From the NCBI RefSeq assembly GCF_016722965.1, contig NZ_JAEQNB010000005.1:62001-126000 (forward strand): a stretch of DNA of 64,000 nucleotides. The letters are read 5' to 3'. This document shows, one piece after another, positions 57,001-64,000 of the stretch. Position numbers: made by a program. Source of the stretch: Tumebacillus amylolyticus. GTDB lineage: Bacteria; Bacillota; Bacilli; Tumebacillales; Tumebacillaceae. Within the stretch, counting starts at the first letter, position 1, and every line of letters begins with the position of its first letter.

Positions 57001-60000
57001 AGCGTTTCGGGAAGCCAGACATCCCCTTGAATTTGCGCAAAGTCGGGAAGAGGTGCTTTCGTCCCGTCAGGATCTTGTGTACGTAGGCTTGGTGCCCTAC
57101 GTCCCAGATGATCTTGTCACGGGGAGAGTCGTAAATTTGGTGCAGAGCCAGCGTTAATTCCACAGCTCCCAAATTGGAGCCGAAGTGCCCGCCTGTCGTC
57201 GCCAAGTTCTCGATCAAGAACTGACGAATTTCCTCTGCGAGTTGATTGAGTTGTTCCACCGACAAATGCTTTATATCAGAGGGGGTATTGATTTTGTCAA
57301 GAAGCATGTGTACCGCCTCACTTCGTGATAGTCAAAACAAGTAGTCAAAAAAAGTCACTCGTCTAACCATTGTATCACAGCACAGCTTTTCCTTTCCATC
57401 CCTTTTCCTTAGTCGTTAGTGTGTACAAAAAAAGGAAGAAAGCCGCAGGGCCTCTTCCTTTTTCTTGAAAACTTTTACTCATTGAACGTGACCGACAACG
57501 AGCCGTCCCAATCGAGGGCGACACCGGTGCGGTAGAACTCGTCACTTTGATAGAAATACAAGCGCGCAATCAAGTCGTGCGGATTGCGGCGCATCACTTC
57601 CACGAATCGTTCGCGGGCGTCGTAGAAGCGACCGTGTTTGAAGAACGTAACGCCCTCTTCAAACAGCGGCTTCGTTTCAGACTTCAGCAAACGAGTGGCT
57701 TGATCGTCCGCTTCAAACACATCGTAAAGCTCCAGCGTCCGCCCTTCGAGAGAGATCTTGCCGATGTTGCGGGCCGGAACACGATGGGTCGCGTCTCCCT
57801 CTTCATACGTGGACTTGGTGGTCAACAGGGTGACTTTGAAGTGCTCGGTCAATTGCTCCAACGTGCCTGTCAAAATCACTTGGTCGGAAATCAGAGAGGA
57901 GTCCAAACGATCATCCGCCCCGATGACGCCGAGCGTGATGTCGCCGGTGTGGATGCCGATGCCGACCGGAACTTCGAGTCGGCGGCACATGCCGACGGCT
58001 GCCGCATACGCGTCTGCAGGCTGCTTCGGGAACAAAGCGACGACACCTGCTTCAAGGAACTTGGCAATCATGCCCCCGTGCTCCGCCACTTCCTTGGAAA
58101 CGTGTGCGAGGAAGCGGTTGTTGATCAGATCGTAAGTCTCTTGCGGGTCGTTGTTGACCCCTTGGCGGAAGTCGTGAATGTTGATCACGAGCACCGACAT
58201 GTGCTCCAAGATCTTCTGATCTCCAAGGTCGAGCGAGGTGATGTCTTTGCCCAGATACAACTCGAGATTTTCCGGGAAATAGCGTTTGTAGGCGTCGCGC
58301 AATTGTTTCGTCTGCTCGATGCTCTCTTGAATCGAAGCGGCCATTTCATTAAATTGTCGGCCCAACTCCCCGACTTGGTCTTGGGAATGATCTTCAATCC
58401 AGAAGCTTCGCTTCTCCTCCGGGTTGGCCCGCAGGATGGAAACACTTTCCTGCAGACGAGTGATTCGTCGAAGTTGCAACCACGTCACCAGCAGGACGAC
58501 ACCGAGAATCAAGATCGTGAACCCGGTCACGATCATGATCGTGATCAAGCGCTCTTCGAGAATTTGCTGGTCGTAGCTGTACATGTTCACGCCCGCTTCA
58601 AATACGCCGACCATCTTGGTTTTGTCCTTGTCAAACAGCGGCCCCAGTGCGAACAGCCAGGTGCCGTTCTCATCTTGGGAGGTACAAGTGACGACATTGT
58701 GATTTTGCAGGTGTGTGACGAGTTGGACATCGTTGACGTCTTCGTAAGCGCCCAACTCGGGGTCTAGAATTTTGCAACTACTCAAGTCACCGGTGTTGGT
58801 GGTCAAGGGGAACGAATCGAACATTTTGACGTCGTTGTCGTCTTCGAAGACGCTGTACGCTCGGTCGTCTTTGACTTTGTGAACCATGAGGTAGTAGCGA
58901 CCGTCGCGTTCTTCGGAATGCACATCGGCGAACAATGCTTGATATCCGATGCCCATGAAATCGAGCGGGGATTGGATTTTTTGCAATTCCTCCGCATGCA
59001 CGAGGTTTTGCGCGTCTTTGACCACGTATTCCATAGAATGACGTACTTCTGTGTCTGTAATCGCGCTGAGCTTGATTTGGATGATAAAGGACAGTCCAAT
59101 CATACAGACCGCAATGAGCGGGAAGAGGATGAACACCTGTTTGAGCAGGATCGACTTCGGCATGATGTCCATGTAGAGCGTCTTGCAAAGCCAGATGAAC
59201 AGCAGGACGAGCAGTGCAAGTCCCGCCCAGTACAGCCATTGCTTGATTTGAATGTTGGTGGAGTAGTCCAACGTACGGACTTGAGACCCATCCGCACTGA
59301 CCACCAAGACATGGTCGTTGAAGATCACGAACTGCGTACCGTCCGGTGCGACGGTGAGTTTTTCAAACGAAACGTCTGCATTGGACGCACTCTGTTCCGA
59401 CTTCCCGAGTTTTTGTTGCGCTTGTTCGACGGTCAAGATCGTCTGGACGCCTTCGGGTGCTTGCGGGTCCAACTGTTTGATGCTCTTGCCGTAGGGGTCG
59501 AGGAACCAGACTCGGTTCTGCGCATCGCGTTGGATGCTCTCGGCATACACTTCATCTCCGACGCTCGGGGTGGTCAACGGATAGAGCTTCACACCGCCCC
59601 GCTTGTAGATCGTCCCTTGCATCGTCGAATAGGTCAGGTCGTCCGGTTTGGAGCCCAGCACTTCTGAGAGGTAGAGGTTCGACGGAATGTCCATCTGGTA
59701 GAGCGTTTTGAACTTGTGAATGCTCTCGTCGTAGGAATTCCATTTGAGCACCCCTTGTTCCAACGCGAGGAACGTAAAGCGACCTTTGCGCATCTGCAAA
59801 GCTTTGACGGTGCCGGAGCGCAAGGCTCCGTTTTTCTTGCTGTCGTATTTCTGAATGTACACGCCCCAGTCCGAATCGAGGTTGCCTTCCGCCGTGTAGT
59901 GGCAGAGCACTTCGTATTTCAAGGTCAGAGCTTTCTCATCCATGACTTGCACCAAGGCGTAGAGTCCGCCGTTGTCCTCAGAAACGGCGTTTCCGAACCT

Positions 60001-63000: not shown

Positions 63001-64000
63001 GGAGATAGCCCGCTTCGGCTTGCTTGGCGGTCAAGTACGTGGATTTGATCTTCGCAGCCAGTTTGTTGCGAGTGTCCGCTTCCTTGAGTTTGGCTTTGTC
63101 CAAATCGAGCAACGCCATCGGCAAGGAACTGGAAAGGTCTTCGAAATAACGGTCGTCTTGGTACTCGCCTTGGAGTTCGACTTTGTCCACGATCTTAATA
63201 AAAGGAAACGAGAGAGCGAGCACGAGTGCTTTTCCCTTCCATTTATTTTTGAGCGAGAGAATCATCGAGTCGTACTGCGAGAGAAACGAATTGTAGTCGG
63301 GGGCTTTCGGTGATTGATACATAGACGCGAGCAACGAGGTCGCTTGCGTGCCGAATTTGTTCTGGTAGAGGCCGCGGATGATGTTGGCTTTGGTCTGCGC
63401 CATGTTGGTGGCTTCGGTGTCTTGGAAGAGATCGAAGTCGGATGATTTCGCAGACTCATAGAGTTTCCACATGGTGTCTTGCGTGAGATTTGCGTAGACG
63501 CGCGGCAGTTCAAACCGATAGTCTCCGTCGAGGTCCTTGCCAAGCAGTTGTCCGAGCGCGAGACGGCCTGACTTGAAGGACAGCTGGGCGGTTTGCAGGT
63601 TGGTCTGCGTTTGCACCACGAGGGCGTCTGCCGCGGTGACATCGTCAGCTGTGGCATACCCGAACTTTTGCTTGGCCCGCAGGTCCTTGGCTTTCTGCTC
63701 CGCTTTTTGCAGAGCGGCCGTTGCGTTGTCTACGCCAACTTGTTGCTGGTAGGCGGTCATATACGCTTGTTCCGTCTGGACTTGGGTCTGACGGACTTTG
63801 TCGTCGAGTTGGTGTTGGAGTTTTTTCTTGTTCAGCATGGCTTGCGGGACTTTGAGCCCGAGGTCGATGTCTCGGCTCATGCTGTGTTCTTTGGCTTTGT
63901 TGGAGTTGTCTTTCTCGTCTTGGTTGCGAAGAGTCTGGTAGGCTTGGGCGAGGTCGAAGTCGGCCTGCGTGAGCTGGACGTTTTTCATCGTCGTAATCTC

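What a model noticed while it worked through the whole genome (the two positions that open the first line are those of the whole stretch)
57475..64000. Bacilli eCIS carry a core membrane pseudo-cyclase receptor, MORN protein and PAAR
At the end of the eCIS locus lie a 951-aa membrane protein (extracellular sensor, HAMP, class III cyclase-like domain without the catalytic aspartates; g03405), a membrane MORN-repeat protein, a DUF4280 PAAR-like gene and, in the family, a TolC-like and a cell-wall-binding secreted protein. The module likely docks the particle to the membrane and triggers or gates firing through the thick wall, making the Bacilli CIS a cell-attached, signal-controlled machine. No Bacilli CIS has a described membrane receptor.
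Evidence so far: Domains in call 33. A g03405 homologue (E <= 1e-40) is in 17 of 17 Pvc16-positive genomes and 0 of 4 Pvc16-negative ones (21 genomes picked by me from call 130; call 181), within 32 kb of Pvc16 on the same contig in 16 of 17; in three distant loci read it adjoins the DUF4280 and MORN genes. All 9 aligned eCIS-linked copies lack both metal-binding Asp (FxDI..GD in the genome's other cyclases g03089, g04542). The TolC-like gene is in 8 of 21. PMC8213781 has no 'cyclase', 'HAMP' or 'MORN' in its main text; one search found no description. The finding spans contig positions 119475 to 128249; this window holds only 119475 to 126000 of it.
(Added by a program. Inside this text positions count along the whole contig: contig position 62,001 is position 1 of the stretch shown here. 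"Call 12" and the like, gene names such as g00115 and contig names such as C1 are that model's own, and its searches are not shown. The text may have been shortened before it was handed on; [...] marks where a part breaks off. The agent that wrote the report below was given it as the finding of a first reader that could run no searches.)

Follow-up and report, generated by a model that had tools for sequence, protein, structure and literature searches.

The report
Dead-cyclase receptor of Bacillota injection machines
One lineage of phage-tail-like injection machines in Bacillota (Firmicutes) travels with a membrane receptor whose cyclase domain has lost its catalytic residues and with a membrane-spanning repeat protein; together these likely hold the machine at the cell's own membrane and likely control when it fires.

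Summary
The genes are real. The 951-aa protein has four transmembrane helices, an NHL-type propeller, a second predicted outer domain, HAMP, a class III cyclase fold lacking all four catalytic residues (D, D, N, R) and a TPR-like tail. It is not core to Bacilli eCIS: in an even sample of 251 genomes of one Bacilli family, 41 of 64 Pvc16-positive and 0 of 187 Pvc16-negative genomes carry it. It marks one sheath/Pvc16 clade, reaching beyond Bacilli, that carries DUF4280, a bitopic MORN protein and one uniform fibre instead of a PAAR gene beside the spike. Of 80 loci, 71 of 73 dead copies sit beside MORN; 0 of 7 catalytically intact relatives have any CIS gene nearby. Dead copies share a TPR signature that intact ones lack, and two loci keep only a soluble cyclase-TPR piece. 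Best reading (40%): MORN anchors the particle and the dead cyclase gates it by protein contact, as proposed for Streptomyces CisA and the haloarchaeal anchor. Main rival (33%): it heads a regulatory cascade (GNAT, degenerate cNMP-binding protein, RsbW/SpoIIE in Paenibacillus) and the particle is released. No binding or function was tested. I found no description in print.

The parts
57475..60330 (-). 951-aa four-TM receptor with degenerate class III cyclase (P0001)
   Evidence: ORF; Pfam; TM scan; AF2 model pLDDT 88.6
59263..60228 (-). NHL-type beta-propeller, residues ~35-356, predicted extracellular
   Evidence: VIA Z 18.0 to Mei-P26 NHL, rmsd 3.5, 240 aligned; profile hits to PknD sensor and Pizza propellers; sidedness inferred from TM order
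58537..59058 (-). Second predicted extracellular domain between TM3 and TM4 (residues ~425-598); Cache-like by position and secondary structure only
   Evidence: Secondary structure; no family or fold match obtained for it alone
58324..58488 (-). HAMP domain (residues 615-669)
   Evidence: PF00672 E 1.6e-5, above cut-off
57703..58221 (-). Class III cyclase fold with N717, A761, I819, T823 in place of D, D, N, R; K757 kept
   Evidence: VIA Z 17.7 to CyaB, rmsd 2.5, 168 aligned; residue alignment to CyaB and Cya2; family alignment
57490..57702 (-). C-terminal TPR-like helical tail (residues 877-947) bearing the dead-clade signature F890/R906/D930, with D870/D875 just upstream
   Evidence: Three helices; a distant homologue carries PF13432; conservation
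60327..62411 (-). 694-aa predicted secreted helical protein with C-terminal Cu_amine_oxidN1 domain; overlaps the receptor start by 4 bp; accessory
   Evidence: PF07833 E 8.5e-29; fused to the TolC-like gene in Paenibacillus
62435..64000 (-). 571-aa predicted secreted OEP/TolC-like protein; its start lies 150 bases beyond the window (contig 126150); accessory
   Evidence: PF02321 E 2e-12; far below TIGR01844 cut-off; within 10 kb of 36 of 73 dead copies
64000..64000 (.). Marker for parts beyond the window's right edge: DUF4280 PAAR-like gene (contig 126255-126659, +; likely spike tip); 529-aa bitopic MORN protein (contig 126660-128249, +; predicted N-in, likely anchor); eCIS structural operon (contig 128356-153666, -: DUF4157, fibre, Tail_P2_I, two baseplate J, gp25, spike, hub, LysM tube, tape-measure-like, tubes, sheath, Pvc16, ATPase)
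   Evidence: MORN one TM at 49-67 with more Lys/Arg before than after it in most homologues and conserved Y38, G42, K48; no room for a PAAR gene between spike and gp25 in this clade
55415..57307 (-). dxs, left flank of the island (ispA is the right flank)
   Evidence: ispA and dxs are 0.2-1.0 kb apart in 4 of 5 relatives checked and about 37.5 kb apart in G001

Best explanation
This is the membrane module of one Bacillota CIS clade, in which the bitopic MORN protein likely anchors the particle at the inner face of the cell's own membrane and the receptor, whose cyclase domain has lost its catalytic residues, likely gates docking or firing by protein contact from its cyclase-TPR head. Shown: gene content, clade specificity, loss of catalytic residues, purifying selection, and a TPR signature specific to dead copies. 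Inferred steps: (1) an outside cue binds the propeller or second outer domain; (2) HAMP moves the cyclase dimer; (3) the TPR tail binds or releases a partner (MORN tail, baseplate or cap protein; not identified); (4) DUF4280 caps the spike in place of PAAR; (5) the TolC-like/Cu_amine_oxidN1 protein is an optional wall-side part. Whether the shot goes outward through the wall (T6SS-like) or into the producer's own membrane (Streptomyces-like) is open.
For: Clade specificity: 41 of 64 Pvc16-positive and 0 of 187 Pvc16-negative genomes of family f20; 34 of the 41 within 35 kb on one contig. In a non-Bacilli order, 11 of 11 Pvc16-positive genomes have it, one as a short form. Carriers form one clade with G480 in sheath (support 0.87) and Pvc16 (0.94) trees. 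Of 73 dead copies, 71 have MORN and 69 DUF4280 within 10 kb; 0 of 7 intact copies have either or any CIS gene. 0 of 5 of those intact-copy genomes have a CIS tube gene, against 5 of 5 dead-copy genomes. G697 holds both kinds: dead beside MORN/DUF4280, intact elsewhere. The TPR tail is more conserved in dead than in intact copies (0.51 vs 0.38) while all other domains are less so; 82 of 88 dead and 0 of 30 intact copies keep at least 4 of 5 signature residues. dN/dS is 0.01-0.19 in the cyclase and 0-0.07 in the TPR over 5 pairs. Fibres of this clade are uniform (505-596 aa) and conserved to the C-terminus, unlike the 523-1935 aa fibres of the other clades. Nachmias 2026 likens eBAP3 fibres to TssK and Tail_P2_I to TssG (PMC12923769 passages). 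Precedents: CisA (PMC12237407) and the clade-specific haloarchaeal anchor (PMC11566945).
Against: No interaction or localisation was tested. G480 (one contig, 99% complete) keeps MORN and DUF4280 without the receptor. G159 and G696 have only a soluble 307-309-aa piece, so the receptor cannot be the universal anchor. In this genome the module is transcribed apart from the particle operon, and the family has its own promoter-like motif there, which fits a regulator as well. In Paenibacillus/Cohnella a signalling cassette follows directly. The fibre head resembles H-lectin/phage fibre tips (0.83, lead only). The receptor-binding part of a Paenibacillus URHA0014 fibre, whose locus has this clade's gene layout, directed engineered PVC particles to THP-1 cells; both favour outward target binding by a released particle. 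The TPR signature could be structural rather than a binding surface; I could not inspect the model's coordinates. Kin genomes are not independent.
Confidence: 0.4

Rival explanations
1. The dead receptor heads a signalling cascade that controls production or release of the CIS, and the particle then works as a released eCIS. In Paenibacillus/Cohnella the signal would pass by contact to the adjacent membrane HEAT/cNMP-domain protein and on to an RsbW/SpoIIE partner switch.
For: Within 10 kb of 73 dead copies: GNAT in 65 (gap -63 to 180 bp from the receptor), HEAT-cNMP membrane protein in 63, RsbW-like in 33, SpoIIE in 33; none beside 7 intact copies. The cNMP-binding domain lacks the phosphate-binding Arg (motif recalled), so both ends of a cAMP link look degenerate. 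The architecture (sensor, HAMP, output) is that of a signalling receptor. The module has its own promoter-like motif. Lectin-like fibre head.
Against: The cassette is not at the Tumebacillus-family loci. Its HEAT-cNMP gene was not found with that one query in G000, G003, G005, G480 or G235 (no positive control in that call), yet the receptor is kept in Tumebacillus under purifying selection. The 73 loci are mostly two genera. It does not explain the constant bitopic MORN protein.
Confidence: 0.33
2. The module protects or alerts the producer: MORN and the receptor detect or block hits from kin CIS (immunity, or a tit-for-tat sensor).
For: Both large domains are predicted to face outward. CDD labels some of the MORN proteins YwqK antitoxin-like (Geller 2021 supplement 6 rows). 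The module is found almost only with this CIS.
Against: Immunity genes usually vary with their toxins (own knowledge), whereas this module is conserved across classes. Orphan copies are rare: one genome, G136, in all samples.
Confidence: 0.1
3. The protein is a regulatory half of a heterodimeric cyclase and tunes cAMP through an active partner.
For: The dimer-interface and signalling-helix residues are conserved. K757 or Arg is kept in 89 of 119 family members. This genome has four other class III cyclases.
Against: None of 88 dead copies keeps both Asp and only 2 keep both Asn and Arg, so neither half-site is complete. In G218 and G235 the dead copy is the only PF00211 match (90% and 99% complete).
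Confidence: 0.07
4. The genes are cargo (injected effectors) or hitch-hikers of the island.
For: They lie at the distal end of the locus, where effectors tend to lie (PMC8213781 passage).
Against: Four TM helices and predicted signal peptides do not suit tube cargo. The block keeps its order in 8 of 8 Tumebacillus-family loci, in differing flanking contexts. In other classes it is shuffled among the Pvc16 and ATPase genes yet stays with the CIS.
Confidence: 0.05

Closest known systems
Streptomyces coelicolor CIS membrane adaptor CisA (PMC12237407; passages seen)
   Same: Monoderm host; CIS-linked bitopic protein, N-terminus in and C-terminal domain out, required for firing and proposed as a sensor. 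The MORN protein has the same predicted topology.
   Different: CisA has a long unstructured tail and an outer domain likened to solute-binding proteins. Here there is a short basic tail with MORN repeats, plus a separate HAMP/dead-cyclase receptor, a fibre gene and DUF4280. Homology to CisA was not tested.
Haloarchaeal T6SS-like CIS with putative anchor Hbor_38620 (PMC11566945; passages seen)
   Same: eCIS-type genes; a membrane protein confined to one CIS clade; Cis12/Cis13 proposed to contact the membrane. This locus's Tail_P2_I and fibre match NCBIfam CIS12/CIS13 below cut-off.
   Different: A 6-TM protein with a 150-residue cytoplasmic domain, no cyclase, HAMP or MORN in the passages seen; S-layer rather than thick peptidoglycan; mode of action shown by cryo-ET there, not here.
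Class III adenylate cyclases with sensor-HAMP-cyclase architecture (CyaB 3r5g, Cya2 2w01; intact members of this family in Spirochaetota and others)
   Same: Fold, signalling helix and, for the intact family members, the whole domain layout; 30 of 118 full-length representatives are intact.
   Different: All four catalytic residues are lost, the TPR tail has a new signature, and the gene is CIS-linked; the intact relatives examined are not.
DUF4280 PAAR-like proteins (IglG; PMC5014421 and PMC8651086 passages)
   Same: Family match; predicted spike-tip role; PAAR_H3 already reported as eCIS-linked.
   Different: Here the gene sits away from the spike gene, in an operon with a membrane protein.
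eCIS catalogue of Geller et al. 2021 (PMC8213781; passages and supplement rows)
   Same: Its tables list these genes (Cohnella panacarvi MORN, DUF4280, Guanylate_cyc) and score MORN as eCIS-enriched (17 genes, odds ratio 14).
   Different: MORN is filed as a 'eukaryotic domain' and Guanylate_cyc and HAMP come out not enriched. No module, dead active site or membrane role appears in what I saw.

Membership tests
eCIS-type contractile injection system | Sheath, tubes, gp25, spike, baseplate J, Pvc16 cap and AAA ATPase in one locus | tested here: met
eCIS-type contractile injection system | Particles released and acting outside the producer | not testable with these tools
   No experiment. None of the 22 island proteins scanned against Pfam hit a holin or endolysin family; the 1878-aa tape-measure-like protein was not scanned.
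Class III nucleotide cyclase (active enzyme) | Cyclase fold | tested here: met
   Foldseek E 1.7e-9 to CyaB; VIA Z 17.7
Class III nucleotide cyclase (active enzyme) | Two metal-binding Asp | tested here: not met
   N717, A761; residue roles from own knowledge
Class III nucleotide cyclase (active enzyme) | Transition-state Asn and Arg | tested here: not met
   I819, T823 against CyaB's Asn and Arg
Core component of all Bacilli eCIS | Present in every Pvc16-positive Bacilli genome | tested here: not met
   41 of 64; 22 of the 23 without it fall in other clades
CisA-like membrane adaptor (MORN protein) | Bitopic, N-in and C-out, encoded downstream of the baseplate genes | tested here: met
   Hydropathy and positive-inside prediction only; position
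CisA-like membrane adaptor (MORN protein) | Required for docking and firing; binds baseplate | not testable with these tools
   Needs genetics and imaging; the complex predictor was not available
CisA-like membrane adaptor (MORN protein) | Sequence or fold homology to CisA | not tested
   CisA sequence not fetched; domain content differs
Canonical T6SS | TssJ/L/M membrane complex and ClpV | tested here: inconclusive
   No such family hit among the locus proteins scanned; no genome-wide search
TolC outer-membrane channel | Full-length TolC profile match with beta-barrel, in a diderm | tested here: inconclusive
   Only half of PF02321 matched; 25.9 bits against cut-off 225 for TIGR01844; no TolC chain hit in the PDB at E 0.01; not folded
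DUF4280 PAAR-like | PF14107 match | tested here: met
   E 4.7e-36; binding to the spike not tested

The most novel reading that the evidence does not exclude
A Bacillota CIS clade has built its own T6SS-style envelope complex. MORN, the TolC-like wall protein and (in some non-Bacilli loci) an EssB-like pseudokinase dock the baseplate. A receptor cyclase turned into a nucleotide-free mechanical switch fires the machine outward through thick peptidoglycan on contact. It would be a contact-dependent contractile weapon of endospore-formers, triggered by a pseudo-enzyme.
Probability: 0.2. Interest if true: 0.88.

Novelty: new variant of a known kind. Interest (0 to 1): 0.64.

Why it matters
How a contractile machine made inside a thick-walled monoderm cell is deployed, and what triggers it, is open; my searches found no characterised Bacillota CIS particle or membrane partner. 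This module names the candidate anchor and trigger, splits Bacillota eCIS into clades with and without it, and offers natural controls: a locus without the receptor, loci with only its soluble head, and a genome with both dead and intact copies. It is also a clean case of pseudo-enzyme evolution: catalytic loss, a newly conserved tail and recruitment to a machine coincide, and in Paenibacillus the neighbouring cNMP-binding domain looks degenerate too.

Tried and rejected
RNA evidence: no RNA holder was listed. Single-sequence fold of MORN was poor (pLDDT 51) and was not used. Fibre against the PDB gave only a weak hit to the tCIS protein All3314 (E 0.23); no TssK hit, which does not exclude a shared fold. 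The TolC-like alignment hit only amine-oxidase N domains. Two broad alignments were too divergent for the locus scan; a 7-sequence Paenibacillus-type alignment was used, so the 80 loci lean to Paenibacillus/Cohnella. Earlier scan notes: nothing returned. The Rv2435c survey PMC2447327 held no usable passage, so mycobacterial degenerate cyclases are not used as a cited precedent. The promoter-like motif core was not found upstream of the ATPase in any of 41 loci, so co-regulation with the particle operon is not shown. Rejected: 'core to Bacilli eCIS'; decaying pseudogene; E <= 1e-40 as a family test; G070 as an orphan receptor (it is an ectodomain-MFS fusion).
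Full report
Setting. The window is G000:C27:62001-126000. The closest named homologues of the 951-aa protein are Tumebacillus proteins at 64-73% identity. The finding is the distal end of a 34-kb island (contig 119475-153666) holding a complete eCIS. 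The island sits between ispA and dxs. These two genes are 0.2-1.0 kb apart in 4 of 5 relatives checked and about 37.5 kb apart in G001, so the island, membrane module included, likely came in as one unit. The TolC-like, Cu_amine_oxidN1 and receptor genes run on the - strand. DUF4280 and MORN diverge from them on the + strand and converge on the particle operon. The module is therefore not co-transcribed with the particle genes here.

The receptor. An AF2 model on 84 homologues has mean pLDDT 88.6. It shows TM1, a propeller (VIA Z 18.0 to an NHL domain), TM2-3, a second alpha/beta domain that I call Cache-like by position only, TM4, HAMP, a class III cyclase fold and three C-terminal helices. 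Aligned to CyaB and to intact relatives, the two metal-binding Asp are N717 and A761, and the transition-state Asn and Arg are I819 and T823 (residue roles from own knowledge). It is predicted to be inactive. dN/dS over 5 pairs is 0.01-0.19 in the cyclase and 0-0.07 in the tail, so it is maintained, not decaying.

The family. I aligned the 119 proteins of 860-1070 aa among the 160 retrieved. 31 keep D-K-D-N-R and 88 do not; one of the 31 (P0037, matching only in the cyclase) was dropped from later counts. None of the 88 keeps both Asp and 2 keep Asn plus Arg. The tail is the only domain better conserved in dead than in intact copies (0.51 vs 0.38). 82 of 88 dead copies keep at least 4 of D870, D875, F890, R906 and D930, while all 30 intact ones keep at most 2; I picked these residues from the same alignment, so this describes the split rather than tests it. 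In cyclase and tail trees all 30 intact copies group together with one dead member. In the ectodomain tree two intact copies fall among dead ones. The trees are unrooted, so the order of events is not settled.

Link to the CIS. Own family: 8 of 8 Pvc16-positive genomes have the full-length gene, and the ninth (G002) has neither; the five-gene block keeps its order in all 8. Even sample of family f20 (251 genomes; unnamed by the tool, taken as Paenibacillaceae from its homologues): 64 have Pvc16, 41 have the receptor, all 41 among the 64. 34 of the 41 lie within 35 kb on one contig and 7 on different contigs. Only 3 candidates per genome were scored. Phylum sample of 400: 9 have Pvc16 and 5 of those the receptor within 9 kb; G136 has it without a Pvc16 or tube match. 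Only 2 candidates per genome were scored there; G361 was rechecked in full, while G137, G265 and G266 were not. A non-Bacilli order of 62 genomes: 11 of 11 Pvc16-positive genomes have it; of 51 negative ones only G136 has a full-length copy, and G729's match is a soluble cyclase with the intact motif. Named non-Bacilli carriers include Desulfocucumis and Syntrophomonas and Crassaminicella.

It marks a clade. All 23 f20 genomes without the receptor carry real eCIS. In FastTree trees of sheath (44 sequences) and Pvc16 (48), carriers (13 of the 41 f20 carriers sampled, plus others) form one clade with G480, support 0.87 and 0.94; the other 22 fall outside. Outside the clade the spike-gp25 gap is 323 bp or more in 22 of 23 loci, with a PAAR-type ORF (read from its motif, not profile-scanned) in 8 of 9 read. 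Inside it the gap is 135 bp or less in 14 of 15. No MORN, DUF4280 or receptor was seen at 14 distal ends of outside loci, and a full-length MORN homologue turned up only in G480 among 30 genomes searched. DUF4280, a predicted PAAR-like fold (PMC5014421 passages), likely replaces PAAR. Fibres inside the clade are 505-596 aa and conserved to the end; outside they run 523-1935 aa, often two per locus.

Dead versus intact. Among 80 loci (the best 80 of 196 confirmed), 73 are dead: 71 have MORN, 69 DUF4280, 36 the TolC-like gene and 37 a structural CIS gene within 10 kb. The 7 intact copies have none of these; four of the 7 have less than the full flanks and one is a partial match. No tube gene was found in 5 of those intact-copy genomes (completeness not given), while 5 of 5 dead-copy genomes have two. 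G697 has both kinds, each in the expected context.

Natural variants. G480 keeps MORN and DUF4280 without the receptor. G159 and G696 encode only a 307-309-aa cyclase-TPR piece with the signature intact; in G696 the ectodomain lies two genes on, fused to a 13-TM protein, and in G159 a similar gene starts there at the contig end. So the head is the retained part and MORN the more constant membrane part. MORN has one TM with a basic, conserved N-terminal tail, the topology of Streptomyces CisA (PMC12237407 passages).

In the 73 dead loci a GNAT gene follows in 65, a membrane HEAT/cNMP-domain protein in 63, and RsbW-like and SpoIIE genes in 33 each; none is beside intact copies or at Tumebacillus-family loci. 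The cNMP domain lacks the phosphate-binding Arg (motif recalled). This supports a regulatory cascade in Paenibacillus/Cohnella but is not universal (one query, no positive control).

Mechanism. I commit to MORN as anchor and the dead receptor as a contact-based gate (0.40), with regulation of production or release close behind (0.33); the two are not exclusive. For attachment: clade-restricted membrane proteins match the haloarchaeal case (PMC11566945 passages), and eBAP3 fibres are likened to TssK (PMC12923769 passages). Against: the fibre head looks lectin-like (lead only), and the receptor-binding part of a fibre from a locus of this layout directed engineered PVC particles to THP-1 cells. 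A TolC-type trimer is too narrow to pass a CIS tube (sizes recalled), so the TolC-like protein is unlikely to be a simple conduit. No binding was tested.

Literature. Searches found no description; 'contractile injection' with MORN, and with adenylate cyclase and Bacillota, returned 0 papers. Term searches of the main texts of PMC12923769, PMC6899500 and PMC12210884 found no 'cyclase' or 'MORN'. Geller 2021 supplements list the genes and score MORN as enriched (17 genes, odds ratio 14) but file it as a eukaryotic domain. I saw rows only; files 6 and 12 were cut and 13-15 were not searched. Supplements of the other surveys were not seen and may bear on novelty, and most subscription papers are not in the library.

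Verdict. A real, clade-defining membrane module with a pseudo-enzyme receptor, not described in what I could search.

Noticed in passing
L021:12788-18781 and 60+ mostly Paenibacillus/Cohnella loci: GNAT, 1040-aa membrane HEAT/cNMP-domain protein lacking the phosphate-binding Arg, RsbW-like and GAF-SpoIIE genes directly after the dead cyclase: a possible nucleotide-free relic of a cAMP pathway.
   Followed up: partly
L104:11180-12079(-), L106:8215-9090(-), L107:17135-17998(-), L180:7046-7912, L188:273-1139: A ~290-aa pseudokinase-like protein with a C-terminal TM near the fibre and MORN genes in five non-Bacilli loci; ESM Atlas lead to YukC/EssB (0.90). Its topology recalls TssL (recalled).
   Followed up: partly
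L188:4485-5408, L180:11305-12234: Natural soluble 307-309-aa dead cyclase-TPR proteins, followed by a ~462-aa gene with no NCBIfam match and an ectodomain-bearing membrane gene.
   Followed up: partly
L027:13451-16483, L030, L109:2495-5503, L180:13552-16650: The same propeller plus second outer domain fused to an MFS transporter instead of a cyclase: a reusable sensor module.
   Followed up: partly
Spacer upstream of DUF4280 (contig ~126150-126255, just beyond the window) and homologous spacers: Conserved TAGTA[CG]TA motif at the apparent -10 boxes of the divergent promoters, in 24 of 43 de-duplicated spacers against 0.5 in shuffles; this genome has only a variant of it.
   Followed up: partly
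L024:13330-20625, L059:2483-7976, L186, L191: Alanine racemase, sensor-MFS and ABC substrate-binding cassette inside several CIS loci of this clade.
   Followed up: no
L010:13397-18742 (G005) and G006, G007, G008: In genus g2 a ~1780-aa cyclase (motif intact in G005, the one checked) lies about 9-26 kb from Pvc16 on the other side of the CIS.
   Followed up: no
L047:10001-12763: The receptor gene is in two ORFs (644 and 257 aa) in this record; frameshift or sequencing error.
   Followed up: no
L183 and L181 (G697): CIS genes are scattered: ATPase-Pvc16-254-aa gene on one contig, DUF4280-MORN-receptor on another.
   Followed up: no
contig C27:141099-146735 (beyond the window): 1878-aa low-complexity tape-measure-like gene, poorly conserved between relatives.
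   Followed up: no
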